This document shows positions 6,449 to 59,500 of a stretch of DNA of 64,000 nt, one piece after another. Made by a program: the position numbers and the translations under genes. Position 1 is the first letter of the stretch. Each line of letters opens with the position of its first letter. The notes under the pieces were generated by a model. It did not search any database, was not told the origin of the DNA, and worked only from the letters and a program-made list of their open reading frames with translations. The stretch is from Eledone cirrhosa (Eukaryota), in NCBI GenBank assembly GCA_964016885.1, contig OZ024743.1, positions 260,648,001 to 260,712,000 on the forward strand. Direction: 5' to 3'.

Positions 6449-9400
6449 ATGACCTCACTCAGAATAGGCAGCATAAATGCGCGTGGCTTGGGGTCGTCAT
6501 GGAAGCAGGGTCACCTGCTCAACGACCTCAGGTCACTAAACATAGATGTAGTGGCCATCAGCGAGACCAGAATCTCCGAAGCACGGGCCTTCGCACCGAT
6601 CTTCGGCGGCTACGATGTGTACGCATCTCCCAGCCGTCCTGGATCCGGTGGAGGAGTTGCTGTACTTTTTCGGAGAGGTTTGGATCTCGCCATACGGGCC
6701 ATCTTCCTGGACCCAGAGGGTAAGCTGGTGGTGCTGGACGTGACCAGCGGAGACGGGCAAGCTTTCAGGCTAGTGGCCGTCTATGCCCCGACAGGAGCAG
6801 GGCGGCCTGATTTCTTCCGGCGTCTGGAGACCTTTCTTGGAACGTCCCGCTCTTTAGTGTTAGTGGGCGACTGGAACGGGATCTTAGATGCACGCTGGGA
6901 CTGTGTGGGATTAGCGGATAGGGGTGGAGGGTGCAAGAGCCTCACCAACCTGCTCAGGCGTTTTGAACTGTCTGACAGGTACCGATTGGATTTCCCGAAT
7001 GTGCCAATGTGGACTTGGACAAACCGCATAGGGTCATCCAGATCATATCTAGATAGAGTATTTTGTAGGGAAATAGATAGGTCTAGCATAGGCTGTCCAC
7101 AATTCAAGATAGTCAGCTACACGGACCACAAATTCGTGATCTGTGTGCTTGACTTAGATAGGCTTCATAGACGAGGACCCGACTACTGGAAGCTAAACGC
7201 GTCCTTACCAGCGCGCAAGGCCTACAGAGACCGGATTAGCGAACTAGTTAAGCGGGCGTTGATGGGGGCCATCGTCAACAACAAGTGGTGGTTTGCTCTG
7301 AAAAGAGCGATTAGAATAGAATCGATTAGATTTAGTAAGGCTTTAGCAATAGAGAAAAATAGAGCAGAGGGAGAACTAGTTAGAAAATTAGACGAGGCGC
7401 TTAGCAAAGGCATTGCGACCGACGTGCTTGCGGCGAAATTGGCCCTTGACCAATTCTTCAATGCAAAGCACGAAGGCTGCATTGTCAGAGCAAGGGTGCG
7501 TGCTCTCAGACACGAGGGGACGAAAGCCGTTCAATGGGCCCGAGTGGCGGAGGCGCGTCGTGGCAACAAAGCCACGATCCGGTCTTTGGTGGACCACGAC
7601 GGGCGCATGCTACTCGATCCCGGGCAAATGTGTGAAGCTTTTCAGCGACACTTCGCTCAGCTGTTCGGGGGCAGCGGTGGGCCGGGTAGAGGGATGGACT
7701 TTAGTGTCTACCTCGACGGACTGCCGCGGCTCTCGGCCACTGAGGCGAAGTGTTGCGAAAAGCCGATAACAGCCGCTGAAGTAAGGGAGGCAATGACTGG
7801 CTGCACAAGGGGTAAATCGCCTGGTTTGGATGGTCTGCCCTATGAACTTTACGTACAGATGCCAGACTTGTTCGGAGGCCTCTTGGCGGACGTCTACTGC
7901 AACTGGCAACAGAACGGGAGAATTCCCAGTTCTGTGAGCCGAGGAGCGGTGGCACTGCTGAGAAAGGATCCGAACAAGGGGGATAACATAGAAAATTTCC
8001 GGCCCATAACTCTGCTAAACACAGAGTTTAAGATTTTGGCCAAGGTGCTAGCAAAGAGGTTGGCGCTTGTCGTTGGTGGTCTGGTGGGAGAGGCGCAGAC
8101 ATGCGCCATTCCCGACAGATCCATCCACGACAACCTCCACCTCATGCGATACATCGTAAAGAGGGTAGCTAGGGAACCTGGCACGGGTGGGTCCTTGATC
8201 AATTTAGATCAGTCGAAAGCTTTCGATAGGGTCGACCATCGTTACCTAGCGGCAGTCCTGAGGGCGGCTGGCTTTGGGCCCGTCTTCAGAGGCTGGATCG
8301 CTGCCATGCACAGCGACATCTGCTCTGTGGTGAGAGTGAACGGTCACCTGTCGGAACCGTTCAACATCATGCGCTCGGTCCGCCAAGGATGTCCCCTCTC
8401 GTCCCTCTTGTACGTATTGACTCTCGAGCCATTACTGCACAAACTGGAGACGTTGAGGGGGGTCCCGCGCGAACTAGGATGCGGAAGATCCGTATCAGCA
8501 TATGCGGACGATGTCACCGTAGTGGTGTCGAACGCCAAACACATCGAGGCGATCGGCACTACACTAAGAGAATACGAAGCGGTGACAGGAGCAATGATCA
8601 ACCAGGAAAAGTCAGTGGGCCTGCAGCTCGGCACCTGGAGAGGCAGGTCCATGCCGTCCAACAGCGTCGTCGGACGCTGGACGGACGGACCGGTTAAATT
8701 GCTAGGGGTCTGGTTCGGTCCGGACCTCCAGACGGACAAAAACTGGGACGAGGTGACGAGCAGGGTGGCTTCTCTCACCCAGAAATGGGCCGAGAGGAAG
8801 CTATCCCTGAAAGGTCGAGCGGAGGTGGCTAACGCGTACATCGCGTCCGTCATCTGCTACCGCCTGACCGTCGTACCTTGTCCTAAGCCTCGCCTGACTG
8901 TGCTGGAGCGTTTGCTCTTTCGCTTTTTGTGGAAGGGACGCGCTCCGATGGTCAGGCGGTCCATCTGTTGTCAACACCCGCTACGTGGAGGGCTGGGCAT
9001 GCCGTGGCTGATGATGCGCAGGCACGCGCTCAGGCTACGACATCTCCACCTCTTCCTCGACGGTGATCAGGTGTGGTCGCCGTTTGCTAGACGCGTGTTT
9101 CCCCAGCTCGTTTCCTTGACGGAGCTGCAGTCCTGGGTCAAGCGAAGACCGAGAGGGAGCGCCTGGAGACTGGAATGTCTTCAGGCGCTCACAGCCCTCG
9201 ACCAATCGGGCAATGTCATCGGTGGAAACTCCACCTCGGCGTTCTATAGAGGATTAGTGGAGGGGAAGAGCGACGACGTACTTGGGGAAACTCTAGGCGT
9301 CGACGAAAATCAACTAGCCAATCTCTTCGGAAGAACTTTCGGGCCAGGGCCTATGGACAACTTCCAGAAATCTCTGGCCTGGCAGTGCTACCGAGGAGCC

Positions 9401-9868
9401 TTGCCAGTTCGGGATAAACTCTACAGGCATGGAGGTGCCGTCAGCCGGGCATGTCCGAGATGCGCGCAGGGCGACGAAACCGTCCTGCACGCACTCGTCC
9501 AGTGTCCGAAAATTGCTGACTTGTGGGTTTATGTCGAACACCTGCTGTCGCGTTTAGGACGGATCCGGCTATCATCTGAGTCCATCGTGAGGATTGCCCC
9601 GCCCTCCTCCTTTAGCCGGGAAGGGCAGGCAGTTTTTATCTGCCTGGTGGCCATGGCGAAAGAGATAGTATGGTGGACACGTTTGAAAGGGCTGAAGACG
9701 AGCACTTACCTCTTCGGTGATGCTCTGATTGACTTTTTCAAATTTCATTTGAAAAGGAAAATCAGAGTAGAGAGGGAAGTGCTCTCTTCCCAGCATTTTG
9801 TTGAAAGATGGGTGAGAGAAGCAAGAATGGCCCGAGTGAATGGGCCTACTCTGAGCATATATCTGTAA
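6449..9868 (+). CDS. LINE ORF2: APE endonuclease, reverse transcriptase, zinc finger (1139 aa, intact)
   Basis: SINARGL, ISETR, VGDWN, SYLDR, YTDH; KSPGLDGLP, FRPITLLNTEFKILAK, LDQSKAFDRVDH, VRQGCPLS, AYADDVT; GGLGMP; CPRC...ETVLHALVQC. Confidence 0.97.
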   Translation: MTSLRIGSINARGLGSSWKQGHLLNDLRSLNIDVVAISETRISEARAFAPIFGGYDVYASPSRPGSGGGVAVLFRRGLDLAIRAIFLDPEGKLVVLDVTSGDGQAFRLVAVYAPTGAGRPDFFRRLETFLGTSRSLVLVGDWNGILDARWDCVGLADRGGGCKSLTNLLRRFELSDRYRLDFPNVPMWTWTNRIGSSRSYLDRVFCREIDRSSIGCPQFKIVSYTDHKFVICVLDLDRLHRRGPDYWKLNASLPARKAYRDRISELVKRALMGAIVNNKWWFALKRAIRIESIRFSKALAIEKNRAEGELVRKLDEALSKGIATDVLAAKLALDQFFNAKHEGCIVRARVRALRHEGTKAVQWARVAEARRGNKATIRSLVDHDGRMLLDPGQMCEAFQRHFAQLFGGSGGPGRGMDFSVYLDGLPRLSATEAKCCEKPITAAEVREAMTGCTRGKSPGLDGLPYELYVQMPDLFGGLLADVYCNWQQNGRIPSSVSRGAVALLRKDPNKGDNIENFRPITLLNTEFKILAKVLAKRLALVVGGLVGEAQTCAIPDRSIHDNLHLMRYIVKRVAREPGTGGSLINLDQSKAFDRVDHRYLAAVLRAAGFGPVFRGWIAAMHSDICSVVRVNGHLSEPFNIMRSVRQGCPLSSLLYVLTLEPLLHKLETLRGVPRELGCGRSVSAYADDVTVVVSNAKHIEAIGTTLREYEAVTGAMINQEKSVGLQLGTWRGRSMPSNSVVGRWTDGPVKLLGVWFGPDLQTDKNWDEVTSRVASLTQKWAERKLSLKGRAEVANAYIASVICYRLTVVPCPKPRLTVLERLLFRFLWKGRAPMVRRSICCQHPLRGGLGMPWLMMRRHALRLRHLHLFLDGDQVWSPFARRVFPQLVSLTELQSWVKRRPRGSAWRLECLQALTALDQSGNVIGGNSTSAFYRGLVEGKSDDVLGETLGVDENQLANLFGRTFGPGPMDNFQKSLAWQCYRGALPVRDKLYRHGGAVSRACPRCAQGDETVLHALVQCPKIADLWVYVEHLLSRLGRIRLSSESIVRIAPPSSFSREGQAVFICLVAMAKEIVWWTRLKGLKTSTYLFGDALIDFFKFHLKRKIRVEREVLSSQHFVERWVREARMARVNGPTLSIYL

Positions 9869-29848: not shown

Positions 29849-30240
29849 CAGATAGATATAACAAACCTGGACCCCTGGAATTGATGGTAAAATCCAGTAC
29901 AGGGTTTCTGCGACACCTAAATCAATATTACTTTCTGCTTAAAACAATAAGCTTTTGGTATAATTGTCGAACAAGGGTTATCACGTTATCAACAGGTATT
30001 TTGTTCTGCACCAGTATTGTGGATGACAGAGTGCTCCGTAAAAGCACATGTGTAAATCACAGGGGAAAACCCCCAGATTTTGCAAATGAATTCAGTATGT
30101 GTAAATCATGCAAAAAATTGCATAAATAGCACAAATCGAATAAGCACTCAACCGAGTAGTTTTTATACAATTAATATGTCAATAGAATTATTAACATGTT
30201 AATTGTAAGACTCGGGAGATTAATACAAATATAAATTATT

Positions 30241-30386
<146 letters not shown>

Positions 30387-30788
30387 GAGAGGGAGAAAGA
30401 GAGAGAGGAGAGAGAAGCTGTATGATCTATTATATAACTAGCGATTAAATAGAACCATGAATGAATAAATGTAATGCGTAGAAATGTTATTGCAACACGT
30501 GCAATATTAAGGTAACATACGTTTACGATTGTTGATTCTGTATCTGTGGACCTATAGAGAGTATGTATTACCAATTGACTTGCAACATGTGTGACTCTAT
30601 TGCAGTTGTTTACGAGGAGAAAACAATCACATCAACGCTGGCGAAAGCTACGAAAACCCCTGCTACGACAATTCAGTACACACAAGCACACACATACACA
30701 CAAACACACACATAAACACATACCAGAAAAACATACATGCATACACATAGATCCATATATATGTATATACATATATACACACACACAT

Positions 30789-31554
30789 TGATTCTTTTTG
30801 AATTGAGTTTGAATTATTTTTCCCACATCTTACGTTAACTATTTTCCCATTTTGACGCTATAGTCACTTATATATTATGGAATACTGTTGGCTTCTTGCT
30901 GCAATAATTTCTATACTTTACATTTATATATCTATACTCGGATTTCTTTCCTAGAGTGCTTAAATTATTTGTGACTAATCCCAGTATTTAAAAAAAAAAC
31001 CGCGATAATATTGCTTTTTGCTGAACTCCTTATTGTAGAGTTTTTTTCGGAATGTTTTTGACTGTTGTTTCATGTAAACAAACATTCGTCTCATTCTGAC
31101 GTCACCAGCCCTGTTTTTCCACATGTGTGTTTTATTTTCATAATCACGCATGATGTTAAACTAGCCTGCTTTTAAATTCCCTTTTTGGCATATTAATCAG
31201 TGAGATTTTGGTTATCGTGTTGAGCTCTGCTGAGGATCGAATTCCAACCGTGATCATCCTCACTGAAAGTTTTCGTGAAATAGTCTTTGCAAGACTATAC
31301 AGAGCGTTTGTAGTTGTTCCAAATTGAAGAATGAGTATTTTATACTTTATTTTATCATGAGTTAAGGCTCTATTGATTTTTCCCTGGATTTCACTAAATT
31401 CTGTTGGATAAATCTATATCCTGATTCTTTTTGAATTGAGTTTGAATTATTTTAACCACATCTTACGTTAACTATTTTCCCATTTTGACGCTATAGTCAC
31501 TTATATATTATAGAATACCGTTGGCTTCTTGCTGCAATAATTTCTATACTTTTC

Positions 31555-31562
<8 letters not shown>
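30789..31562 (+). mobile_element. Retrozyme-like element R1: 633-bp unit plus about 140-bp terminal direct repeat, internal HHR
   Basis: 30789-30930 is repeated at 31422-31562; HHR at 31224-31305; no ORF; ends in (TA)n. Confidence 0.75.
31224..31305 (+). ncRNA. Type I hammerhead ribozyme (R1)
   Basis: GCUCUG-CUGAGGA-U-CGAA...UUCG-U-GAAA-UAGUCUU(UGC)AAGACUA-UA-CAGAGC. Confidence 0.75.
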
Positions 31563-31615
<53 letters not shown>

Positions 31616-31618
<3 letters not shown>

Positions 31619-31835
31619 TTGTTTTGCAAGGCTTTTGATATGAAATCGTGTGTCGAAACAAATATTGTTATACTTGGGGAGGGTCATATTGTAATAATAT
31701 TGCCAGAAATAATAACAGAACACACTCACTGTTTGGTTGGATTTCGCTTCTTTATCTTTTATATCTCCATAGTTAATTTATTTGGCAATCAATGTTTATC
31801 ATTGATTGACTAACGGTTAAAAATACAGTTCTAAA
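31616..31835 (-). mobile_element. Solo 3'-terminal fragment of the PLE1/PLE4 family, including the tail
   Basis: TGAAATCGTGTGTCGAAACA.ATATTGTTATACTTGGGGAGGGTCAT...AACAGAACACACTCACTGTTTGGTTGG matches the reverse complement of about 53880-54105. Confidence 0.85.
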
Positions 31836-31864
31836 TATATAACTCCTATATAACTCCTATATAA

Positions 31865-32399
31865 TTCCTAACTCAATATATACCTTTGATATATTCGGCT
31901 CCGTTAATTTGTTGAGCTATTTCAAATGTCGAATAAACCTGGCTGCTATTTTTTTAGTCGTGTGGGTTTGTGAGACGCGCTAGGACGCCATGTGCGCTAT
32001 TATTATTATATATGGCACACTGTTCAGTTTCTTAATATACTTAGAAGTGTCTAGAATAATTTATCACCCACTGATGAGCATAAATTGGTAATTCTATTCA
32101 CAATTAACATTGCGAAACGACAAGTTGTCTGGGTGATCGGTAGTTACCACAATTCCGGTTTGTATTTATTTTCTTGATTTTTTTCTTAAATTGAGACAAG
32201 CAAACCCAATTGTCTGTAGTTAGTATTCTTTCCATCTTAGCGAATCTGGTCCCTTACGATTTGAACACATATATGTATATATCTGTGTTCGTTTTTCTTT
32301 TATATTCTATTATAATAAACGGCTCTGAAATATCTCTTTCTTAGAGCTATTTTGTTGTAAGAGACTATCTTGAGTTCCTAACTCAATATATACCTTTGA
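31865..32399 (+). mobile_element. Retrozyme-like element R2: 510-bp unit plus 25-bp terminal direct repeat, internal HHR
   Basis: TTCCTAACTCAATATATACCTTTGA at 31865 and 32375; HHR at 32063-32137. Confidence 0.7.
32063..32137 (+). ncRNA. Canonical type I hammerhead ribozyme (R2), GUC site, predicted cleavage after 32129
   Basis: AUCACCCA-CUGAUGA-GCA...UGC-GAAAC-GAC(AA)GUU-GUC-UGGGUGAU; 8-bp stem I and complete core. Confidence 0.88.
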
Positions 32400-32400
32400 G

Positions 32401-32429
<29 letters not shown>

Positions 32430-32433
<4 letters not shown>

Positions 32434-33013
32434 AGTATATATACGTAAATACATATATGTATACAGACGTATAGTAATATGTATATATATACATACATGA
32501 ACACATATATATATGTACGTATGGTTTTACCGAGCATTTATTATAATGCTGGGTTTGTTTGTAAACTCACATCCCGAATTAAGCCGTACGGTGTTTGGCA
32601 ACCATCGTTGCCTTTTGTTCAACAGTGACAAAGGAACGATGTACTAGTTTCAAGCTTATTAGCTATCGTCAGCACGGTATACTTTCCTGCCAGATGATTG
32701 AACGTCTGAAAGTATATACTTTCCTTATGCATATTAACGGCTGAGCAGCCTAATTTGCATATCTAGTGAGTTAATCAGCCGGGCGCACCGAAAACGATAA
32801 ATGGAAAAAATGAAACGAAATTTCATTTCTCACTCTTAGTACGGCTGTTACTTAATTATAAGTATGTATACGTACATACATATATGTATACAGACGTACA
32901 GTAGTATGTATATATATACATAAATGCACATATATATATGTACGTATGGATTTACCGAGCATTTCTTATAATGCTCGGTTTGTTTGTAAACAAACATCCC
33001 GAATTAAGCCGTA
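32430..33013 (-). mobile_element. Retrozyme-like element R3: about 425-bp unit plus about 157-bp direct repeat, internal HHR
   Basis: 32430-32588 is repeated with divergence at 32857-33013; HHR at 32637-32676; a related fragment lies in opposite orientation at about 15780-15895. Confidence 0.7.
32637..32676 (-). ncRNA. Minimal hammerhead ribozyme (R3)
   Basis: CGUG-CUGACGA-U-AGCU(AAUA)AGCU-U-GAAA-CUAG-UA-CAUCG; palindromic CUAG in stem III. Confidence 0.72.
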
Positions 33014-33130
33014 TATTTTTTTTTTTATTATCATTATTTTCACTATTTGTACAAATATGCAACTTAACAATATTCTGCATATCCGCAATTGACAATGCAT
33101 TTAATGCTGAAACCGGTATTGTAAATAAAT

Positions 33131-33250
33131 TAATTGTTTCTGCGTTAGGCACAAGGCCAGCAATTACCCAGTGCATTACTGGTACTTTATTTTATCGACC
33201 CCGTAAGGATGAAAGGCAAAGTTAACCTCGGCGGGATTTGAACTCAGAAT
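33131..33250 (-). mobile_element. 5'-truncated copy of the (ATT)n-tailed SINE
   Basis: Nearly identical to the reverse complement of 46417-46536. Confidence 0.88.
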
Positions 33251-33386
33251 TCAAATTTCACTAAAAAAATCTCTTCAAAAATGTCTACAGAAAAAATCTT
33301 TTTCCTTTCTACTATTTGTTTATATATATATATATTAATAAAAATAATGAATAAAAACAAAGAAACTGTTCCTTATATTAAAAATT

Positions 33387-33529
33387 CATCATTTTACCAT
33401 CGTTTCTAGGATATATATGTTATATGTGTGTATTGGTATGTATATCATATAGATCTATGTAATAATTTTACAAACTATCAGAGGGAATATACATACCTAT
33501 ACATATATATGCTGTCTTCAGAAATAATG
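33387..33529 (-). ncRNA. Hammerhead ribozyme with very long stem II (PLE5)
   Basis: CAUUAUUU-CUGAAGA-[about 110-nt hairpin with AUAUAUAUGU/ACAUAUAUAU and GGUAUGUAUAU/AUAUACAUACC]-GAAAC-GAUG-GUA-AAAUGAUG; base of stem II is mismatched. Confidence 0.65.
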
Positions 33530-34793
33530 ATATTTGTTTATTGAAAAAAAACAACAAAGATTTAATATAATAGGTCTGTTTGGGAACAGGTTTTGAATTG
33601 ACCAATAGAAAAGTAGTAAGGGGTCAAGTTGATAGAATAGTAGTAGTAGAAATTTAATTTAGGGGTAGAGGAATGCAGACTTCAGTTTAGAATGGAAAGA
33701 GTATTTTGAATGAAAAGATTACTTTGGGGATGAAAATAGGTCAAGTCGGTGAAAGGTACACGAAAATTTGATGTTATTAAAGAATAATGCTAATGTTAAA
33801 ATCTAAGGAGAATAAAATTTTACGATAAATGTGTTAGTGAAAAATATCAAACTTATTTAAAAACATAAGGAATTTAGATCTATAAAAATAAATTAAATTA
33901 ATTTAATTGCTAGGTATATTTATAGGGATAAATTTATATTAATTCATATAGATATGATAAATAAGAGTTAGATGTTATTAAAGAATGTTGTTAAAAACGA
34001 AGGAAAACATTTTTTTTTGGGGGGGGGGGGGGTTAAATGTATTAGTGAGAAATGACAAGCTTATATAGATTACAAGGAATTTAGATTCATAACAGGAAAT
34101 TAAAATAATTTATATGTATACTTATTGGTATAAATTTTAGGAAAAGATAGCTGTAAAAGGGAAATAAAATTATGCAGTTCTTAGTAGTAGAATATTAATT
34201 ATAGGTTAACTAATTTTAAAAAAGTAATTATAATAATTTGTAAAATATAAGTGTATATTAATTAGGCTTATAATATTTGAAAGTTTTTCTAATTCTATGA
34301 TTGCACGATATAATTAATTCTTGTCGCTTATTTAATAGGATATCCTTAGATTTCATTATTTCAAAAAGTTCCTGGGAACATAATCTACATTCATATCTAT
34401 TATTTTGATAAGGGGTGGCCCTTTTGAGCACACTCCAGGTCAGGTTATAATCGATATTCTTTTTTCTATAATTATTAATTATATCAGCTAACGATGTTGT
34501 ATTAGCTAATGCGGCATTTTTAAAACTGTGTTTGTGGGTATTAAATCTTACTTTACATTTCTAACCTTTCATCTAACCAGGATATATTCGATAAAAATGC
34601 GACCTTTTATAACGAAGCTTTAGCTAGAAGCGGCCACAAAAACAAATTAGTATATATACCTTGCACCAATAATACTACAAACATACAACCCAATATTACC
34701 AACAAACACCAAATGAAATATACACACCTAAATGCCACTCACACTATGCCCCAAAAATACCAACTTAAAACTTAATTTCTCTACCTCTTCTAA

Positions 34794-46551: not shown

Positions 46552-47475
46552 GAACATATAAAGCAGCACACAGACATTACGGACAAAAATTACTACACCC
46601 CACCAACACCAAGAACTTTCCCGAAAAATATAAACATTATTGAAATTAAAATAGAACATTATAAACATTTAAAAGAAAAATTCCCCAACGCAGTTGGAGA
46701 CTTCAGAGGGTCAGTTACTAAAAGGATATATACCGACATCATCTTGGAGACACCCATGACCAGCCAAAGGGACGGTTCAACTGTCCCTTTCCCACGCGAT
46801 CAGGGTAGGTGATCCTTTCTCATTTACTTCATTCCTCACCCAACATGGCCTTACTTAGAATAGGCAGTATAAATGAACGTGGCCTGGGGGTCATCTTGGA
46901 AGCAGGGCCACCTGCTCAACGATCTCAGGTCACTAAACATAGATGTGGTGGCCATCAGCGAGACCAGAATTTCCGAAGCACGAGACTTCGCACAGATCTT
47001 CGGCGGCTACGTGTACGCATCTCCCAGCCGTCCGGGAGCGGGGGGAGGAGTTGCTGTGCTTTTTCGGAGCGGTTTGGATCTCGCCATACGGGCCATCTTC
47101 CTGGACCCAGAAGGTAAGTTGGTGGTGATGGACGTGACCAGCGGAGACGGGCAAGCTTTCAGGCTAGTGGCCGTCTATGCCCAGACAGGAGCAGAGCGGC
47201 CTGATTTCTTCCTGCGTCTGAAGACCTTTCTTGAAACGTTCCACTCTTTAGTGTTAGTGGACGACTGGAACGGGATCTTAGATGCACGCTGGGACTGTGT
47301 GGGATTAGCGGATAGGGGAGGAGAGTGCAAGAGCCTCACCAACCTGCTCAGGTGTTTTGAACTGTCTGACAGGTACCGATTGGGTTTCCCGAATGTGCCA
47401 ATGTCGACTTGGACATCCAGATCATATCTAGATAGAGTATTTTGTAGGGAAATAGATAGGTCTAGCATAGGCTGT
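46552..47475 (+). mobile_element. L1/Tx1-clade LINE, family B-like fragment D (end of ORF1 plus APE)
   Basis: KFPNAVGDFR of ORF1, then ORF2 from ATG 46845 closely matching 6449-7096; truncated at both ends. Confidence 0.9.
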
Positions 47476-47568
47476 GCGAAAAGTAGAAAAAATTATCCGA
47501 CTATATTGTAGTCAAAATAGAGAGAGAGAAAGAGATAGTGGTTGTGAGAGAGTAAATTGAAAGACACC

Positions 47569-49214: not shown

Positions 49215-49290
<76 letters not shown>

Positions 49291-49534
49291 TATGGAATAC
49301 TGTTAGCTTCTCGCTACAACAATTTCTATACTTTTCATTTATATATATATATATATATACATACATATATATCTACACTAAGATGTATGACCTGTTGACA
49401 AACTCCTAACTCCTTTGTTGAATGTGTGTGTATATATATATATATATGTATGTGTGTGTATATATGTATGTATATGTATATATATATCTCAGTCGTTGCG
49501 ACCAGATTTCAAGACAGCAACAACAACTACAACT

Positions 49535-49638
<104 letters not shown>

Positions 49639-49852
49639 ATATTTGGGGAGGGTCATATTTGCGTAATATTGCCAGAATTAATAACAGAACACACTCACTG
49701 TTTGGTTGGTTTTCGCTTCTCGCTGTCTTTTATATATATATATCTGCGATCTAACTTACTCGGTCCTCAATGTTGCCATTGACTGACCGGCGGTCAAAAA
49801 TAATACAGATACAATATAGACACAAACACATATATATAGTTTACATAATTTA

Positions 49853-49890
49853 CATAAATCTTTCGTTGCACATCTGCAACATCGTCAGTG
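49853..49890 (-). ncRNA. Minimal hammerhead ribozyme (PLE4 left arm)
   Basis: Reverse complement of 53802-53839. Confidence 0.68.
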
Positions 49891-50150
49891 GTGTTATATT
49901 CATTGTTCCTCCTGTTGTGTTGTATGTCTACGCCATTTTTTTTTGTTCAGTCTGTCTATATATTTATTTATTTATTTGCTTGTTTGTTTATCTTATTTTA
50001 TTTTGTCTTCTTTGCGCATGCGTTTGCGTGTGTGTATAGTGTGATGTGTGACTAGTGTGTATAGTGTTGTGTCTGCTGGGTGACTAGTGTGTGTTTATGT
50101 GCTTGTGTATGTATTTATTTATCTTATTTTATTTTATTTTATTTACTTAT

Positions 50151-52757
50151 TTATACTTCTCTTAGGTCAGTGTTGTTTGTTTGGGTGTTGTTGTTGTTCC
50201 ACTCATTCTTTCTGTTTAGCTTTGGTCTTCTAATTTCTATTTCACTGGCCTCTCTGATTTGCCTATCTGCTGGGTCATTCCTATGTTTAGATATTATTCT
50301 AATTTCTATGTTGTCTATGTTACCGTCATGTTGTTGTCTAGCATGTTCGTATAGTACTGACCCGTTTTTTCGTCCTTTTAGTTCCCCCCAGTGTTGGTCT
50401 ATCCTTTCACCTATGCTACGAGCTGTCTCACCTATGTATGTTGTTGTCATGTTTCTGCAAGTACCCTCTGTACATCTTATGCTATAGACTACGTTTCTAG
50501 TTTTACAGTTTATCCGGGGGTTCACCTTACAAATGATACATTTCCTATTGGTACAGTGGGTTTTCTTAAAAGGGTAGGTTTTGCTGATCAGGGATTTTAT
50601 GGTGGTTCCTGGCTTTTCTACCACCTTTATTTTTAAGTGGGTCTTTCTCAGGGCCTTTCTACACTGGTTAGCTAATTTCCCTCCAGGGATGGCGTCCACA
50701 AACATGACACTCTGATATCTCTGGTTGTCGTACCATGATGTGGCCTTCCCTATCTTATGTCTAGCCCTATCTAAGCTATTCCATGATTTGCTCCTGTATA
50801 GTGGGCAAATTCCTTTCATGTCCAGTTCTATGAGGGTCTTATACTTTTCCATGGCTCCTTCGTATACTCTGACTCTGTCTCTTTGGTTGTAGCCAGAGAA
50901 CTGCATGCGGTTGATGAAGTGTTGGATGTGTCCTTCCATTTCTGTTGGGTCGCACATGCTGGACACATTCTTCATCACTCGTACCAAATCTGCGATCAGA
51001 ATATTAAACTTAGCACTACTGGACATTGCTGAGTTTTTGAGTATCAGGTATTTGGAGGCCATGGGTTTAGCATAGTGTGAGTGGAGAATTTGGGCTCTCT
51101 CGTCTATAGTGTTAATCCAGAGTTCTGTGTCTAATACAGGTAGTCTATTGTTAGGGTGTTTGGAAGGGAAGTCTATAGTTACAGTTATACTCTGGTGTAT
51201 GGAATTAGCTATCTGCTGGATGCTTTCCATCGTGCTACGTTCTAAATCAAACTTGTTAGTACTCTCTAGTGGGGGTGTTCTTATAACTATATTGATATCG
51301 TCTACATAACGAGAGTACATGATGAGGTCTATGGAGCTTTCATTAAGGAGATCTTTAAGTCTCCTTTCCCACCATACCATGAAAAGGTTGGCAACATCAC
51401 CAGCTATGCTGACGCCGATGGCTGCTCCCTCATTTTGGGTGTAGATTTTCTCATTGAACTTAAATATGTGGCCCTTTAGGGTAGTTTTGATACTAGCCCC
51501 TATTGCATGTGCGACCATTTTTCTTACCTGATCAGTGTTTTGGGGGGTCCGTATAGCTTTGGTCCACCCAATCCACCTTCCTATGGGAGTCTTTTTAGCC
51601 ATTGAGGTTATGGTGGGGGGTCTACCTCTTATAGGTCTACTAGGGCAGAAACATCTAAGGTCATGGCTGTCTAGGTAGTCAGTGTCGTAGGTAAGTCTAA
51701 GTAGGAGGCCCAGTTCGTCTGTGTCGACGTCGCAGAACTCCACCTCACTCTCAATGATCATCTCCACACATCTTTTCACAGCAAAATCAATGTTAATGGA
51801 TGGGTACAGTGACACCACATCCATGCTGCCTATTATGCAGTTGGATAGGCTCCTGTTTTTGTTGCACTCACTGATTCTGCTGAGGAGGTCCTCTGTACTT
51901 TCACATACATCTGGGGACATCTTGATTATGGGGCGTATAACCATTGAGAGGAAGTAGGAGATCCTGTAGTTGCTAGCTATATTAGCTCCGCATACGGGTC
52001 TTGTTGGTGGTCCTGTTGTCGGGTCGTCGACTGTCTTGTGGTCCTTGCGGAGCCCATACAAGGGTGGTATGCCATTGTTAGACGCCTGGAAGTTGTTGGC
52101 AGTGCGTCTGCTTGGCTTTAGGATGTCAGTCCACATCATCATGTGAGCGTTGAGGATTTTTTCTCTCCCATCGTGTGTTAGTTGTGCAACTTCGCTCGTG
52201 TTGGTGATGTGGGGTTGCATTGCCTCGATGTAGTTCGGCATGCTATCTATTGACATCCTACCAGACTTATCTGTGGGTAGACACACTACCTCACCATCCC
52301 TTGTGCGCTGCTTGAGGCTAACCAAGCCTTCTACAGGTTTTATCCCAAGTTGTTGGGCCTCTGGTCTGCTCTGTCTCATAGTGTACCTGTCTACTACTTG
52401 TCTAATCTTATTTCTAGCTATGGTGAACTGTGCCTCCGTCTCGTCATCTATTTGCTGTGGTATGCAAACTCTTTTATTAAAGGGTAACCTCGTAGGATAG
52501 ATATTACCCATCTTATATGTTTTGTCAGCTGGGTTGAAAAATAGTTTCTCTAAGGGGTTGTCGTTATTTCTATCGTCATAGTTGTGTGTGTTGCTATTAT
52601 TGTTATCATGGTGGTTGTTGTTGTTTCTATCATTAGCATTAATATTATTATTGTTATGATTGCTAGATGTATTGTTGTTTACTTCACCGTTATTGTTGTT
52701 GTTGTTACTGCTATTTCTACCATTGTGGTTGTTGCTATTATTATGTTTCTTGTTTTT
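50151..52757 (-). CDS. PLE reverse transcriptase plus GIY-YIG endonuclease, uninterrupted frame but 5'-truncated
   Basis: LPTDKSG, PPLYGLRKDHK, RPVCGA, SMDVVSLYPSI, QNEGAAIG, RYVDDI, LPVLD, YAKP; NVVYSIRC...YIGETARSIGERIDQH...RQIREA...PKLN. Confidence 0.9.
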   Translation of the reverse strand, partial: KNKKHNNSNNHNGRNSSNNNNNNGEVNNNTSSNHNNNNINANDRNNNNHHDNNNSNTHNYDDRNNDNPLEKLFFNPADKTYKMGNIYPTRLPFNKRVCIPQQIDDETEAQFTIARNKIRQVVDRYTMRQSRPEAQQLGIKPVEGLVSLKQRTRDGEVVCLPTDKSGRMSIDSMPNYIEAMQPHITNTSEVAQLTHDGREKILNAHMMMWTDILKPSRRTANNFQASNNGIPPLYGLRKDHKTVDDPTTGPPTRPVCGANIASNYRISYFLSMVIRPIIKMSPDVCESTEDLLSRISECNKNRSLSNCIIGSMDVVSLYPSINIDFAVKRCVEMIIESEVEFCDVDTDELGLLLRLTYDTDYLDSHDLRCFCPSRPIRGRPPTITSMAKKTPIGRWIGWTKAIRTPQNTDQVRKMVAHAIGASIKTTLKGHIFKFNEKIYTQNEGAAIGVSIAGDVANLFMVWWERRLKDLLNESSIDLIMYSRYVDDINIVIRTPPLESTNKFDLERSTMESIQQIANSIHQSITVTIDFPSKHPNNRLPVLDTELWINTIDERAQILHSHYAKPMASKYLILKNSAMSSSAKFNILIADLVRVMKNVSSMCDPTEMEGHIQHFINRMQFSGYNQRDRVRVYEGAMEKYKTLIELDMKGICPLYRSKSWNSLDRARHKIGKATSWYDNQRYQSVMFVDAIPGGKLANQCRKALRKTHLKIKVVEKPGTTIKSLISKTYPFKKTHCTNRKCIICKVNPRINCKTRNVVYSIRCTEGTCRNMTTTYIGETARSIGERIDQHWGELKGRKNGSVLYEHARQQHDGNIDNIEIRIISKHRNDPADRQIREASEIEIRRPKLNRKNEWNNNNTQTNNTDLREV

Positions 52758-52800
52758 AATAAGATTAGACAAGTAGTAGACAGGTACACTATGAGACAGG

Positions 52801-53541
52801 TACAACCAAAGAGACAGAGTCAGAGTATACGAAGGAGCCATGGAAAAGTATAAGACCCTCATAGAACTGGACATGAAAGGAATTTGCCCACTATACAGGA
52901 GCAAATCATGGAATAGCTTAGATAGGGCTAGACATAAGATAGGGAAGGCCACATCATGGTACGACAACCAGAGATATCAGAGTGTCATGTTTGTGGACGC
53001 CACCCCTGGAGGGAAATTAGCTAACCAGTGTAGAAAGGCCCTGAGAAAGACCCACTTAAAAATAAAGGTGGTAGAAAAGCCAGGAACCACCATAAAATCC
53101 CTGATCAGCAAAACCTACCCTTTTAAGAAAACCCACTGTACCAATAGGAAATGTATCATTTGTAAGGTGAACCCCCGGATAAACTGTAAAACTAGAAACG
53201 TAGTCTATAGCATAAGATGTACAGAGGGTACTTGCAGAAACATGACAACAACATACATAGGTGAGACAGCTCGTAGCATAGGTGAAAGGATAGACCAACA
53301 CTGGGGGGAACTAAAAGGACGAAAAAACGGGTCAGTACTATACGAACATGCTAGACAACAACATGACGGTAACATAGACAACATAGAAATTAGAATAATA
53401 TCTAAACATAGGAATGACCCAGCAGATAGGCAAATCAGAGAGGCCAGTGAAATAGAAATTAGAAGACCAAAGCTAAACAGAAAGAATGAGTGGAACAACA
53501 ACAACACCCAAACAAACAACACTGACCTAAGAGAAGTATAA
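52801..53541 (+). pseudogene. Inverted duplicate of the PLE4 GIY-YIG region (233-aa ORF from 52840)
   Basis: Matches the C-terminus of the minus-strand ORF except DATP versus DAIP. Confidence 0.9.
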
Positions 53542-53801
53542 ATAAGTAAATAAAATAAAATAAAATAAGATAAATAAATACATACACAAGCACATAAACA
53601 CACACTAGTCACCCAGCAGACACAACACTATACACACTAGTCACACATCACACTATACACACACGCAAACGCATGCGCAAAGAAGACAAAATAAAATAAG
53701 ATAAACAAACAAGCAAATAAATAAATAAATATATAGACAGACTGAACAAAAAAAAATGGCGTAGACATACAACACAACAGGAGGAACAATGAATATAACA
53801 C

Positions 53802-53839
53802 CACTGACGATGTTGCAGATGTGCAACGAAAGATTTATG
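53802..53839 (+). ncRNA. Minimal hammerhead ribozyme (PLE4 right arm)
   Basis: CA-CUGACGA-U-GUUGCA(GAUG)UGCAAC-GAAA-GAUU-UA-UG; stem I is short. Confidence 0.68.
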
Positions 53840-54101
53840 TAAATTATGTAAACTATATATATGTGTTTGTGTCTATATTGTATCTGTATTATTTTTGACC
53901 GCCGGTCAGTCAATAGCAACATTGAGGACCGAGTAAGTTAGATCGCAGATATATATATATAAAAGACAGCGAGAAGCGAAAACCAACCAAACAGTGAGTG
54001 TGTTCTGTTATTAATTCTGGCAATATTACGCAAATATGACCCTCCCCAAATATAACAATATCTGTTTCGACACACGATTTCATATAAAAAACCTCGCAAA
54101 A

Positions 54102-54175
<74 letters not shown>

Positions 54176-55871: not shown

Positions 55872-55943
55872 TGACGTACATGGGAGTCCCACCCACATCT
55901 TTGGTTATCCGGACCACTGTGCTACCATTTACACCAACACATC
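55872..55943 (-). pseudogene. tRNA-like sequence with mutated T loop
   Basis: Same as 56198-56269 but TTCGA is changed to TGGGA. Confidence 0.7.
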
Positions 55944-56197: not shown

Positions 56198-56269
56198 GAT
56201 GTGTTGGTGTAAATGGTAGCACAGTGGTCCGGATAACCAAAGATGTGGGTTCGACTCCCATGTACGTCA
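56198..56269 (+). tRNA. tRNA-like cloverleaf (anticodon position GGA), probably not a decoding tRNA
   Basis: Acceptor GATGTGT/GTACGTC plus A; D arm GTGT/GCAC; anticodon arm TGGT-CCGGATA-ACCA; T arm GTGGG-TTCGACT-CCCAT; TTTTT about 10 nt downstream. C at position 33 and a short variable loop are atypical for tRNA-Ser. Confidence 0.7.
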
Positions 56270-56539: not shown

Positions 56540-59500
56540 CCATGCTGTAAAATAGAGAGGTAGAGAGGGCCCATGAGTCCAGTAAGACATGCTCTATGGT
56601 GCTGGTGTCACAAATAAAAGCACCCAGTCCATGCTGTAAAGTGGCGCTGGTGTTAGGAAGGGCATCCAACCAGTTTATCAATGCCAAAATGATTATAAGC
56701 ACAGCAACAAGTATATAGGAACAACAAAAATATGAAGACATCGCATCTCAGAGTTGCAACACTTAATAATGTTGGCACTCTCACAGGTAGATCTGCTGAA
56801 ATAGCGAAGATGCTGGAGAGAAGGCATGTGCTGCGTGCAAGAGGTAAGATAGAGAGGTGCCTCTGCGAGACTAGTCGCAGGCAAACATCTTAGCTATAAG
56901 CTTTTCTGGGTAGGTAAGGATGATGGGTTAGGGGGAGTAGGCATTTTCCTGGCTGAGAGATGGATCAATAAGACAATAGAGGTAGTTCGAGTTAGTAATC
57001 GAATAATTAAGCTTATATTAGTTGTAGGCCAGAGACTACTGACAATCATCTCTGTTTATGCTCTCCAAGCAGGCCTAGGCAAAGAAGAGAAAGACTGCTT
57101 TTACGAGCAACTCTTACAAACAACCGCAATGTCAGAGGACTGAGACATCGTTATGCTAGCAGGGAACTTCAATGGTCATGTTGGACAGCTCCAGGATGGT
57201 TACACTGGGGTACATGGTAGGCACGGTTACGGCTCAAGAAATGAAGAAGGAGTGAGACTTCTTGAATTTTGTGATGCAAGTACACTGACTCTTTGCAACA
57301 CTAACCTCCAGAAAACTGTCAACCACCTAATAACCTACAAATCAGACGAGCACATAAGCCAGATTGACTTCTTACTAGTTAGGCAGCGGGACAGGCAGGT
57401 GGTGTCAAATACCAAGGCATACCCAGGGGAAGAATGTACCCCACAGCATAGGTTAGTCGTTAGTGATATCTCAGTAAGCAAGAGATGGAATGAGACATAC
57501 AGGAAGGTGTGGAGAAGAAAGGTCTGGAAGCTAAAAGACCTTTCACTAAAATACAAATTTAGGAAAGCCCTTCAAGATGTGTATGACGAAAAAGAAGACG
57601 ATTTAGAGACGTATGACAGATAATAACTGGAATTTCTTACGTGACAACTTACTGCAGGCTACTGATGAAACTTGTGGCTGGAGCAGAGCTCCTACCAGAC
57701 AAAGAGTGACCTGGTGGTGGAACAGCTCAGTAGATAAGGTCATTAGAGACAAAAGACTAGCATGGAAGGCTTGGAGAAAGGGTGGGAGTAGAGAAGGATA
57801 TACAGCCGCTAAGAGAGAAGCTAGACGTCAGGTGTACTTAGCACGCAGGGAGGTGAGAGTAGGAGGTTTGCCAATGTTCTGCGACGGGAAGATCAGAGGC
57901 GTGCGGTGTTCTACATTGCAAAGCAGTGTGTCAATGCAAATCAGGATGTTGTTGGAGATAAATGCGTCCGGAATGATGCCGGTGTACTTAGTGTCACGAA
58001 TGATCAGAAAAAAGAGGCCTGGAAATGTCATTATGAGAGACTGGTGAATGTGGAGAACGAATGGGAGAGAGAGATATTACCCTCAGTAGGTCCGATAGAG
58101 GGACCAGCTATTGAGATTGACGAATATAGGGTCCAAGAGGCAATTAAGGAAATGAAAAATGGTAAGGCTGCTGGATTGTCGGGGATAGTTGGTGAGATGC
58201 TGAAGGCATCAGGGGACGTAGGCACTAAACTGGTTGCACGCATCATCAATCAGGCTATATATGGTGGTGTCATACTCAAAGACTGGTGCAACAGTATTCT
58301 CATAAATTGCTACAAAGGTAAAGGGGATGCTCTGGAGAGGAGCAATTATAGGGGCATAAAGCTGATGGATCAGGTTATGAAAGTGGTAGAAAGGATATTA
58401 GCACAACTAATTAGAGAAAGGGTCAAACTAGATGAGATTCAGTTTGGTTTTGTGCCTGGGAAGAGTACAACAGATGCCCTCTTCTTGGTGAGACAATTAC
58501 AAGAGAGGTTCTTAGAGAAGAATAAGCCACTATACTTAGCCTTTGTTGACCTAGAGAAGGCCTTTGATAGGGTACCCCGATCTGTCATCTGGTAGTCCCT
58601 AAGGAAACTAGGTGTTGAGGAATGGCTTGTGAGGACAATGCAAACTTTGTGCAGAGGTGTTGTCAGTAAAGTCAGGGTAGGAATGGAGTTTAGTGAGGAA
58701 TTTCAGATACAAGTGGGAGTACATCAAGGTTCGGTCCTCAGCCCTCTCTTGTTCATTATAATCCTCGAAGCCATAACAGAGGAGTTTAAGACTGGCTGTC
58801 CATGGGAACTTCTCTATGCTGACGATCTGGTTCTTATAGCAGAATCAGTAGAGGAGCTAGAGAATAAATTCTGGGTATGGAAACAGCAGTTGGAAGCAAG
58901 AGGACTGAAAGTGAACCTAACTAAGGCAAAAGTGTTGATGAGTAGAAAAGAGGACAAAACTCTGATTCTGTTAGGGAAATGGCCATGTTCGATAAGCAGA
59001 AAAGGAACTGGCATAAATTCTATAAAATGCACACAATGCAGATCCTGGGTACACAAGAGATGTAGTGGGATAGCAGGCAAACTAACAGGTAGGGTGAAAT
59101 ACATATGCAGTAGATGTACAGGGAAATTAGACAGTAGAAGTCGCATTGATAGACACATTTTTTCAAATGCAGTCGGCTGCTATAGAAGTGGTGGATAGCT
59201 TCCGGTACCTAGGAGATCAGATTAGCATGAGAGTGGGGTGTTCCGAGGCCATAGTATCTAGAATAAGGACGGGTTGGAAGAATTTTAGAGAGCTGCTTCC
59301 TCTGCTAACGAAGAAGGGTTTCTCCCTGCGTACGAAAGGCCGGTTATATGATGCCTGTGTGAGGAGCGCGGTGCTGCATGGTAGTGAGACATGGGCAGCA
59401 ACTGCAGAGGATATGCAACGGCTGGAGAGAAATGAGGCAAGCATGCTCCGTTGGATGTGCAATGTCAATGTGCGTGAACGACCCAGCCTGAATGTGTTGA

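What the first reader, a model, noticed from the sequence alone, without database searches (positions are those of the whole stretch)
30789..33013. Three dissimilar retrozyme-like elements side by side, each a partial tandem with one hammerhead
Seen: R1 (633-bp unit, about 140-bp repeat), R2 (510-bp unit, 25-bp repeat) and R3 (about 425-bp unit, about 157-bp repeat, opposite strand) are non-coding, next to (TA)n, and each holds one HHR in the non-duplicated part. Established: animal non-LTR retrozymes are HHR-processed small circular RNAs thought to use PLE machinery. Inference: 'more than one unit, less than two' is the expected product of reverse transcribing a circular or multimeric RNA. 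These units are longer than the typical few hundred nt and may be new families.
Basis: partly seen in the sequence, partly recalled or inferred. Interest (0 to 1): 0.75.

Follow-up and report, generated by a model that had tools for sequence, protein, structure and literature searches.

The report
Hammerhead retrozyme copies clustered in TA repeats
Three unrelated, non-coding, high-copy repeat families that each carry a hammerhead-ribozyme motif sit side by side because all of them insert into (TA)n microsatellites; they are likely copied in by the Penelope-like retrotransposon enzymes of this genome, so they are new members of a known class (animal retrozymes), not a new kind of element.

Summary
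R1 (633-nt unit), R2 (510) and R3 (427, minus strand) are partial tandems, mutually dissimilar, non-coding, 32-34% GC, and abut (TA)n. Each has one type I hammerhead motif. A fourth insertion was missed: a 150-nt 3' fragment of a Penelope-like element (PLE) at 31615-31764.

Each family gave 3207-4209 first-look candidates in the 3.0-Gb genome. Copies share a fixed 3' end followed by (TA)n, and their 5' ends vary. An R1 sample seeded on the 3' end ran from 0.19 to 1.64 units (median 0.61), so "between one and two units" is one point on a 5'-truncation series. R2 and R3 often form head-to-head inverted pairs and have two alternative 3' ends at TA-rich patches.

The window also holds an autonomous PLE (RT plus C-terminal GIY-YIG) with the same (TA)n flanks and an inverted 5' copy. 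Its family is very abundant and nearly identical between copies.

Best reading: non-autonomous hammerhead retroelements (non-LTR retrozymes), likely mobilised by PLE enzymes through target-primed reverse transcription on an RNA longer than one unit. Whether that RNA is circular is not shown. No run on record as RNA was listed.

Verdict: new members of a known kind, of moderate interest.

The parts
30789..31557 (+). R1 copy. It is 1.21 units of a 633-nt unit, 5'-truncated, and its 3' end reads ...CTTTTCATT before (TA)n.
   Evidence: The same 3' end is seen in 28 of 29 chains of the 3'-seeded sample.
31224..31305 (+). R1 type I hammerhead motif. Helix I is GCUCUG/CAGAGC. The core is CUGAGGA. Helix II spans 40 nt, with a U.U closing a CGAA/UUCG stem. 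After GAAA, helix III has 8 bp (A15.1-U16.1 plus UAGUCUU/AAGACUA). The predicted cut is after UA, before C31300.
   Evidence: The core is intact in 29 of 38 distinct copies, and the N7 column is split G16/C10/T11/A1.
31558..31614 (.). (TA)n tract shared tail-to-tail by R1 (+) and the PLE fragment (-).
31615..31764 (-). 5'-truncated 3'-terminal fragment of the autonomous PLE family.
   Evidence: 91.5% identity over a 212-nt alignment (which includes TA) to the PLE 3' region; this stretch is not part of R2.
31765..31864 (.). Unassigned 100-nt spacer. Part of it recurs elsewhere in the genome.
   Evidence: query positions 172-226 matched one other place at 95%.
31865..32404 (+). R2 copy. It is 1.06 units of a 510-nt unit, and its 3' end reads ...ACCTTTGAGATAT before (TA)n.
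32063..32137 (+). R2 type I hammerhead motif. Helix I is AUCACCCA/UGGGUGAU (8 bp). The core is CUGAUGA. Helix II spans 36 nt (GC/GC base plus AAUUG/CAAUU). After GAAA, helix III has 4 bp with a CAAG loop. The predicted cut is GUC|U before 32130.
   Evidence: (the minimum-free-energy fold shows helices I and III). The core is intact in 25 of 34 distinct copies. Most copies have a 5-bp helix III; the window copy carries a 7-nt deletion there.
32405..32429 (.). (TA)n tract shared tail-to-tail by R2 (+) and R3 (-). Its borders are uncertain by a few nt.
32430..33013 (-). R3 copy. It is 1.37 units of a 427-nt unit, and its 3' end reads ...ACGTATATATACTTATA before (TA)n.
32636..32678 (-). R3 type I hammerhead motif of the dimer-prone animal kind. 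Helix I is ACCGUG/CAUCGU here (5 of 6 pairs); the commonest form among copies is ACGGUG/CAUCGU (6 of 6). The core is CUGACGA. Helix II is AGCU/AGCU closed by U.U. After GAAA, helix III is 1 bp with the palindromic loop CUAG. The predicted cut is after UA.
   Evidence: The core is intact in 34 of 45 distinct copies. Pair 16-52 occurs as GU in 31 copies, UG in 6 and AU in 5.
49661..54133 (-). Autonomous PLE, the candidate source of the enzymes. It is not part of the finding's coordinates. The open frame runs 50151-52976 (941 aa). The 3' region carries a minimal hammerhead-like core at 49861-49888. An inverted copy of the 3' region lies at 53541-54133. (TA)n flanks both sides.

Best explanation
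R1, R2 and R3 are copies of three unrelated families of non-coding, hammerhead-bearing retroelements (animal non-LTR retrozymes) that insert into (TA)n microsatellites and are likely mobilised by the reverse transcriptase-endonuclease of Penelope-like elements.

Shown by the sequence:
- Each family has thousands of dispersed candidates.
- Copies have a fixed 3' end followed by (TA)n and a variable 5' end.
- Copy lengths run continuously from a fifth of a unit to several units.
- R2 and R3 often occur as head-to-head inverted pairs.
- The three lie side by side, together with a fourth PLE fragment, because successive insertions used the same TA tracts. R1 and the PLE fragment are tail-to-tail on one tract, and R2 and R3 on the next.

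Inferred mechanism:
1. A tandem master copy is transcribed into RNA longer than one unit. The hammerheads would cut it into unit-length RNAs that can be ligated into circles.
2. A PLE endonuclease nicks a (TA)n target. The freed TA end anneals to a UA-rich patch inside the RNA, which would explain the fixed, and in R2, R3 and the PLE alternative, 3' ends.
3. Reverse transcription runs 5'-ward for a variable distance across unit borders.
4. Because (TA)n is its own reverse complement, both nicked strands can prime, which would give the inverted pairs.

The template was continuous across the ribozyme cut site, so it was either an uncut multimer or a religated circle. The genome data do not tell which.
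For: Copy number and identity:
- First-look candidates numbered 3207 (R1), 3951 (R2) and 4209 (R3), with 40 scored each.
- Full-length scored matches other than the window itself were 93-96%, 87-94% and 84-94% identical to the window copy.

Ends and flanks, R1:
- In the full-unit-seeded sample, 17 of 18 chains share one 3' position.
- In the 3'-seeded sample, 28 of 29 chains do.
- In the 3'-seeded sample the 3' flank is a TA run in 24 of 29 chains and the 5' flank in 15 of 29.
- Lengths there are 0.19-1.64 units.

Ends and flanks, R2 and R3:
- R2: of 38 chains, 19 end at unit position 510 and 12 at 420-423. Both ends are followed by (TA)n. There are 12 head-to-head pairs in 24 loci.
- R3: of 42 chains, 28 end at position 427. 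A second end lies near position 60, and there are 11 head-to-head pairs in 24 loci.

Template continuity:
- 23 of 28 unique R1 elements span the predicted cleavage site.
- None starts unambiguously at it; two start 4-6 nt upstream.

Hammerheads:
- The descriptor gave 5 hits in the window against 0.025 per simulated window.
- The core is intact in 29 of 38 (R1), 25 of 34 (R2) and 34 of 45 (R3) distinct copies. The free core position N7 is the least conserved core column in R1.
- Each family has one or two pairs with changes on both sides: 3, 5 and 6 cells. Shuffles reached the covariation score in 3, 11 and 1 of 500.

PLE link:
- The 941-aa frame has a weak RVT_1 match.
- It carries a C-x4-C-x2-C linker and a VVYSI...TYIGET motif.
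- Its C-terminus aligns at E=2e-6 with a neighbouring frame that has a sub-threshold Pfam GIY-YIG match (E=1.9e-4, 22.1 bits against a 22.6-bit cut-off).
- It is flanked by (TA)n on both sides and has an inverted copy of its 3' region upstream.
- 39605 first-look candidates were found. All 150 scored copies are 99-100% identical in protein, and 149 have no stop.
- Of 14 PLE copies whose flank I printed, 12 are followed by TA-rich sequence.

Literature:
- Partial tandems, inverted 5'-truncated copies and (TA)n bias are described for PLEs (PMC8557442, passages).
- The retrozyme-PLE link is proposed in PMC7229834 (passages) and in bioRxiv 10.64898/2026.07.22.740005 (abstract, Results section and passages).
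Against: - No Rfam hammerhead model matched, even at E<=10. The motifs rest on a descriptor I wrote after seeing them.
- Helix II is atypical. It spans 36-40 nt in R1 and R2, and a U.U closes the stem in R1 and R3.
- Covariation is thin, amounting to one or two events per family among related copies.
- No sequence similarity links R1-R3 to either PLE in the window, so no partner is identified.
- The abundant PLE family is much younger (99-100% protein identity) than the R copies (84-96% DNA identity).
- R1 shows no head-to-head pairs in 18 plus 27 loci, unlike R2 and R3.
- Target-site duplications cannot be read inside TA runs.
- No evidence on expression or on circles was obtained.
- Samples are small (18-29 loci per set) and drawn from the best-scoring candidates only.
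Confidence: 0.78

Rival explanations
1. Circular-template reading. The DNA copies are made by rolling-circle reverse transcription of hammerhead-cut, ligated, unit-length circular RNAs. Copies longer than one unit are laps round the circle.
For: - Copies exceed one unit, up to 2.85 units in R1 and 6.4 in R3.
- The 3' ends lie inside the unit, 211-266 nt 3' of the predicted cut site. They are not at an RNA end set by cleavage.
- 23 of 28 R1 copies are continuous across the cut site.
- Unit-length circles fold more stably than shuffles, with z of -2.3, -3.7 and -5.8 against 25 mononucleotide shuffles each.
- Circles of such repeats are shown in other animals (PMC7229834, passages).
Against: - Uncut multimeric transcripts of tandem masters explain the same facts.
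- The autonomous 4-kb PLE forms the same inverted structure here, and partial tandems are described for PLEs (PMC8557442, passages), without any small circle.
- One R1 array has an A-B-A pattern: units two apart are 98.8% alike and neighbours 95.7-95.8%. This argues against a single-unit circle in that case.
- The two R1 repeats in the window are only 96% alike, no closer than different copies are to each other.
- No RNA data were available.
Confidence: 0.3
2. The hammerheads are relics. The families descend from PLE terminal repeats and spread as plain read-through RNAs. The ribozyme plays no part in their copying.
For: - About a quarter of the sampled distinct copies have a broken core: 9 of 38, 9 of 34 and 11 of 45.
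- Helix II is atypical and no Rfam model matched.
- No copy starts unambiguously at the cleavage site.
- Craig et al. note that some PLE clades thrive without hammerheads (PMC8557442, passages).
Against: - Three unrelated families each keep a complete motif.
- The commonest letters among copies restore the pairs that single copies have lost (R3 helix I).
- Both-sided changes keep pairs in all three families.
- In R1 the one free core position varies while its neighbours do not.
Confidence: 0.2
3. SINE-like elements mobilised by a LINE, not a PLE. The (TA)n would be a LINE-type microsatellite tail, and the inverted pairs ordinary twin priming.
For: - LINEs with RT and an apurinic-type endonuclease are present in the window at 1507-3759 and 6311-9868.
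- Fixed 3' ends with 5' truncation also fit LINE-driven copying.
Against: - (TA)n is on the 5' side too, in 15 of 29 R1 chains. It is therefore a target, not only a tail.
- Rfam found no tRNA, 5S or 7SL head in the region.
- Hammerheads, multi-unit copies and inverted 5' pieces are PLE traits.
- The co-resident PLE shows the same flanks.
- I did not compare the R 3' ends with LINE 3' ends genome-wide.
Confidence: 0.07
4. Ordinary satellite DNA, spread by unequal crossing-over and segmental duplication without an RNA step.
For: Some loci hold arrays of 3-6 units, and one R3 array spans about 5.7 kb.
Against: - There are thousands of dispersed candidates on many contigs with unrelated flanks.
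- All share the same 3' end but have different 5' ends, and they are embedded in TA runs.
Confidence: 0.03

Closest known systems
Animal non-LTR retrozymes (Cervera & de la Pena 2020, PMC7229834; coral, mussel, axolotl)
   Same: - Non-coding, low-GC repeats in tandem, with one type I hammerhead per unit.
- There are no LTR, PBS or PPT features.
- R3 has the classic 1-bp helix III with a palindromic loop.
- A U.U at the base of helix II is also reported for one axolotl motif (passages).
   Different: - Units are longer than the 150-450 bp quoted there, though within the 51-972 bp of the 2026 preprint.
- Helix II in R1 and R2 carries 36-40 nt.
- Most copies here are dispersed, 5'-truncated pieces in (TA)n, not long arrays.
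- Circular RNA is not shown here.
Penelope-like elements, canonical C-terminal EN+ clades with the CX2-5CxxC linker (Neptune-type), and their pseudo-LTR hammerheads (PMC8557442; PMC4209133)
   Same: - Partial tandems, inverted 5'-truncated copies and insertion bias for (TA)n.
- A hammerhead lies in the repeated terminal part.
   Different: - R1-R3 encode nothing and share no sequence with the two PLEs in this window.
- Their hammerheads have real helices I and III, unlike the minimal PLE motif.
- The extra nucleotide after CUGANGA reported for the minimal motif is seen here at 49861-49888 and 22391-22437.
Non-autonomous Chlamys elements such as MRC1 of Chlamydomonas (PMC8557442, passage)
   Same: Non-coding elements that form pseudo-LTRs and multicopy head-to-tail insertions using PLE machinery.
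   Different: - Those share their 3' ends with autonomous families and mostly lack hammerheads.
- Here no shared 3' end was found, and hammerheads are present.
Plant LTR retrozymes (PMC4918200; search listing and abstract only)
   Same: Non-autonomous, hammerhead-bearing, and expressed as circular RNA in plants.
   Different: As contrasted in PMC7229834 (passages), the plant elements have:
- type III hammerheads;
- PBS and PPT motifs and 4-bp duplications;
- GC above 55%.
That they sit in true LTRs (abstract of PMC9695139) and use Ty3/gypsy machinery is from the listing and recall. None of this applies here.

Membership tests
Hammerhead ribozyme, type I | Conserved core CUGANGA ... GAAA ... 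U-H, with helices I, II and III in type I order | tested here: met
   - one hit each in R1, R2 and R3.
- The reversed sequence gave 0 hits, and 200 simulated windows gave 5 hits in all.
- The descriptor was written after the candidates were seen.
Hammerhead ribozyme, type I | Match to a curated Rfam hammerhead covariance model | tested here: not met
   - Searches (gathering score, whole window; E<=10, 30000-34000) gave no hammerhead family.
- The likely causes are the 36-40 nt helix II and the U.U closures. That is my inference.
Hammerhead ribozyme, type I | Pairs kept by compensatory change across copies | tested here: inconclusive
   - one or two pairs per family change on both sides, in 6, 5 and 3 cells.
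- Shuffles reached the covariation score in 1, 11 and 3 of 500.
- The copies are related, so these are few events.
Hammerhead ribozyme, type I | Self-cleavage at the predicted site | not testable with these tools
   This needs in vitro transcription.
Animal non-LTR retrozyme | Tandem, non-coding, low-GC units of a few hundred nt, each with a type I hammerhead, and no LTR, PBS or PPT | tested here: met
   - GC is 0.32-0.34 and the longest frames are 85, 49 and 59 aa.
- Multi-unit copies carry one motif per unit.
- PBS and PPT were not searched for explicitly.
Animal non-LTR retrozyme | Expression as unit-length linear and circular RNA | not testable with these tools
   No run on record as RNA was listed.
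Non-autonomous derivative of a Penelope-like element | PLE-type insertion anatomy: 5' truncation, partial tandems, inverted 5' copies and microsatellite targets | tested here: met
   -.
- Inverted pairs are seen in R2 (12) and R3 (11) but not in R1 (0).
Non-autonomous derivative of a Penelope-like element | Sequence similarity to the terminal region of an autonomous PLE | tested here: not met
   - no match to the window, which holds two PLEs.
- 85 of 95 R loci have no PLE coding sequence nearby.
- Other PLE families of this genome were not tested.
Plant-type LTR retrozyme | Type III hammerheads within long terminal repeats of fixed length | tested here: not met
   - The motifs are type I and lie outside the duplicated parts.
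- The repeat length varies from copy to copy.
tRNA-, 5S- or 7SL-derived SINE | A head derived from a small RNA gene | tested here: not met
   no such Rfam match in 30000-34000.

The most novel reading that the evidence does not exclude
These copies are the genomic footprint of reverse transcription that starts inside an RNA with no usable 3' end, namely a hammerhead-made circle. The nicked (TA)n target anneals to a UA-rich patch and so sets the 3' end of the DNA copy, and the enzyme then laps the circle. That would be the first sequence-level evidence of how animal retrozyme circles get back into DNA. It would also explain why PLE-type elements favour TA repeats, have alternative 3' ends, and form inverted pairs.
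Probability: 0.25. Interest if true: 0.7.

Novelty: new member of a known kind. Interest (0 to 1): 0.38.

Why it matters
Animal retrozymes are known mainly as tandem repeats that give circular RNAs. How they are copied back into DNA is still conjecture. Here three unrelated hammerhead families show a clear insertion footprint: a fixed 3' end, graded 5' truncation, (TA)n on both sides and inverted pairs. That footprint matches an autonomous Penelope-like element in the same window. This supports the proposed dependence on PLE enzymes and offers a tractable system, with thousands of candidates per family and an apparently very recent PLE burst. It does not add a new class of element.

Tried and rejected
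- Rfam at gathering score and at E<=10 gave no hammerhead. The listed hits are microRNA-like matches to TA/CA repeats, which I take as chance.
- My first strict scan, which required at least 3 contiguous pairs at the very ends of helix II, found only R2. I replaced it with the descriptor.
- The look-up of sequencing runs: no RNA holder listed. It returned four runs of unknown kind from one study, kept as contigs.
I did not use the second call, because contigs of unknown kind cannot show RNA ends or circles.
- I tested whether 5' ends pile up at the ribozyme cut site, as run-off on cleaved linear monomers would give. They do not.
- I tested whether the repeated parts within one insertion are more alike than different copies are. 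Results were mixed, so this says nothing either way about a circular template.
- Counts of the two alternative PLE 3' ends are unreliable, because the query ended in (TA)n. I dropped them.
- phmmer of the PLE protein against PDB sequences found nothing at E<=0.01. Pfam found no GIY-YIG in its last 200 aa even at E<=5.
- The search of earlier findings held nothing for this genome.
- I did not try to name the organism.
Full report
**What is there**

The window is G000:C4:260648001-260712000 of a 3.0-Gb, 1796-contig genome rich in simple repeats. The three partial tandems are real (for the R3 total):
- R1: 30789-30936 repeats at 31422-31569 (148 nt, 96%, period 633).
- R2: 31865-31894 repeats at 32375-32404 (30 nt, 97%, period 510).
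- R3: 32430-32588 repeats at 32857-33013 (159 nt at 92%, period 425-427).

The elements are 32-34% GC. Their longest stop-to-stop frames are 85, 49 and 59 aa. They share only short TA-rich matches with each other. TA runs lie at 31558-31614 and about 32405-32433.

**Hammerheads**

Rfam reported no hammerhead, either at gathering score over the window or at E<=10 over 30000-34000.

By hand, and then with a type I descriptor, I found one motif in each element. The descriptor required:
- 6-nt helix I arms with at least 5 pairs;
- the core CUGANGA;
- a helix II of at least 3 bp, allowing one free base on each side;
- GAAA, then a helix III insert of 2-25 nt, then U-H.

The hits were:
- R1 31224-31305 (+);
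- R2 32065-32135 (+);
- R3 32678-32636 (-);
- two minimal PLE-type motifs at 22391-22437 (+) and 20758-20712 (-).

The reversed sequence gave none. Two hundred first-order Markov windows gave 5 hits in all. The descriptor was written after I had seen the candidates, so these odds are optimistic.

The three motifs differ in build:
- R1 has a stable 8-bp helix III and a 40-nt helix II.
- R2 has a 4-bp helix III (5 bp in most copies) and a 36-nt helix II.
- R3 has the classic animal form, a 1-bp helix III capped by the palindromic loop CUAG, which the literature links to action as dimers (PMC4209133, passages).

The U.U at the base of helix II in R1 and R3 has a published parallel in one axolotl motif (PMC7229834, passages).

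**Support from other copies** (distinct copies aligned)

| Family | Core intact | Pair changed on both sides | Shuffles reaching the covariation score |
|---|---|---|---|
| R1 | 29 of 38 | AU 23, GU 4, UA 2 | 3 of 500 |
| R2 | 25 of 34 | AU 17, GC 5 | 11 of 500 |
| R3 | 34 of 45 | GU 31, UG 6, AU 5 | 1 of 500 |

- In R1 the free core position N7 is split G16/C10/T11/A1, while its neighbours are kept.
- The window's R3 copy carries a C-C mismatch that the commonest form does not have.
- This is real but thin support. The copies are related, so the events are few.

**The families genome-wide**

| Family | First-look candidates (40 scored each) | Identity of full-length scored matches to the window copy |
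|---|---|---|
| R1 | 3207 | 93-96% |
| R2 | 3951 | 87-94% |
| R3 | 4209 | 84-94% |

These are not copy numbers.

R1:
- In the full-unit sample, 17 of 18 chains end at the same position (...CTTTTCATT) and then run into (TA)n. Their 5' starts are scattered.
- That sample can only contain long copies, so I reseeded with the last 120 nt.
- In the reseeded sample, 28 of 29 chains end at the same 3' position.
- Lengths run from 0.19 to 1.64 units, median 0.61, and 6 of 29 exceed one unit.
- The 3' flank is a TA run in 24 of 29 chains and the 5' flank in 15 of 29.

So the window's 1.21 units is one point on a truncation series.

R2:
- Of 38 chains, 19 end at unit position 510 and 12 at 420-423. Both ends precede (TA)n.
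- 24 loci hold 12 head-to-head inverted pairs.

R3:
- Of 42 chains, 28 end at position 427. A second end lies near position 60, again before (TA)n.
- There are 11 head-to-head pairs, and arrays reach 6.4 units.

R1 shows no inverted pairs in either sample.

**What the ends say about the template**

- The fixed 3' ends lie 211-266 nt 3' of the predicted cut sites. They are therefore not RNA ends made by the ribozyme.
- 23 of 28 unique R1 elements run across the cut site. None starts unambiguously at it, and two start 4-6 nt upstream.
- Cleaved linear monomers were therefore not the usual template. It was an uncut multimer or a religated circle.
- One array shows units two apart at 98.8% identity and neighbours at 95.7-95.8%. 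Another shows neighbours at 98.6-98.9%, and a third shows no pattern. This does not settle the question.

**A fourth insertion and the likely enzyme source**

Window 31615-31764 is not R2. It is the reverse complement of the 3' end of a PLE (91.5% over an alignment that includes TA; one search shows it is not repeated with R2).

That PLE lies at 49661-54133 on the minus strand:
- It has a 941-aa open frame with a weak RVT_1 match.
- It carries a C-x4-C-x2-C linker and a VVYSI...TYIGET motif.
- Its C-terminus aligns at E=2e-6 with the neighbouring frame 23355-24254, which has a sub-threshold Pfam GIY-YIG match (E=1.9e-4, 22.1 bits against a 22.6-bit cut-off).
- Pfam itself finds no GIY-YIG in its last 200 aa.
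- It has (TA)n on both sides, an inverted copy of its 3' region upstream, and two different 3' end points in the two copies.
- Its family gave 39605 first-look candidates. All 150 scored copies are 99-100% identical in protein, and 149 are without a stop.
- Of 14 copies whose flank I printed, 12 are followed by TA-rich sequence, and two abut R3.

The layout of the finding is therefore R1(+) > (TA)n < PLE fragment(-), then a 100-nt unassigned spacer, then R2(+) > (TA)n < R3(-). These are successive hits on the same TA tracts.

**Not UTRs of long PLEs**

R1-R3 have no similarity to the PLEs of the window. 85 of 95 R loci show no PLE coding sequence within 1.5 kb. Where it occurs, its position and strand vary.

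**Comparison with what is known**

- Partial tandems, inverted 5'-truncated copies and (TA)n bias are described for PLEs, including clades with the CX2-5CxxC linker. Non-autonomous PLE-type elements are described in Chlamydomonas (PMC8557442, passages).
- Animal repeats with type I hammerheads were named non-LTR retrozymes and shown to give circular RNAs (PMC7229834, passages).
- A 2026 preprint ties them to PLE terminal repeats and reports consensus lengths of 51-972 bp (10.64898/2026.07.22.740005; abstract, Results section and passages).
- In the passages I read, and in two full-text searches, I saw no account of fixed 3' ends, alternative TA-patch ends or inverted pairs for retrozymes themselves. 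I did not read these papers in full, and the preprint's supplements are closed.

**Verdict**

The retrozyme reading is supported at the level of DNA anatomy and motif. The circle-template inference remains open. These are new members of a known kind.

Noticed in passing
window 49661-54133 (-): An autonomous Penelope-like element with a 941-aa open frame. Its family gave 39605 first-look candidates in the genome, and all 150 scored copies are 99-100% identical in protein over 250 aa, 149 without a stop. This looks like a very recent, very large burst.
   Followed up: partly
window 20712-20758 (-) and 22391-22437 (+): An inverted pair of identical minimal hammerhead motifs (CUGAAGA, an extra G, a 6-bp helix II, GAAA, a 4-nt loop). 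The same motif appears in the flank of an R1 copy elsewhere (L013). It probably marks the head-to-head arms of another PLE-type family.
   Followed up: no
window 23355-24254 (-): A 299-aa frame with a Pfam GIY-YIG match (E=1.9e-4, just under the curated cut-off). It is a second, different PLE family, only 29% identical to the first over the endonuclease.
   Followed up: partly
whole window: CTGANGA-N(4-34)-GAAA occurs 13 times against 2.78 expected, and 0 of 100 shuffles reach 13. The matches include 25171, 37317, and 49861 paired with 53804. Hammerhead-like cores are common here beyond the three elements.
   Followed up: partly
L019 (same place as L005), G000:C1:124529016-124530798: An R1 array whose units two apart are 98.8% alike while neighbours are 95.7-95.8% alike (an A-B-A pattern). 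This suggests a template or array with a two-unit period.
   Followed up: partly
window 18737-18791 (+), 49290-49338 (+), 15837-15895 (+): Further short pieces in the window: two R1 3'-terminal stubs of about 50 nt, and a 59-nt R3 piece.
   Followed up: no
window 1507-3759, 6311-9868, 46873-47511, 57825-59198 (+): LINE-type frames (RVT_1, zf-RVT, Exo_endo_phos; one with a PHD finger). The window is largely mobile-element sequence.
   Followed up: no
window 55872-55943 (-) and 56198-56269 (+): Two tRNA matches above the Rfam gathering score, about 250 nt apart on opposite strands.
   Followed up: no
L078 (G000:C3:202407903-202411022): An R1 copy (+) lies about 40 nt from a 5'-truncated PLE coding piece on the opposite strand, head to head. 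This could be a mixed inverted pair made from two different templates, or it could be chance.
   Followed up: no
window 31765-31864: A 100-nt stretch between the PLE fragment and R2 that belongs to neither. Part of it recurs next to an R2 copy on another contig.
   Followed up: no
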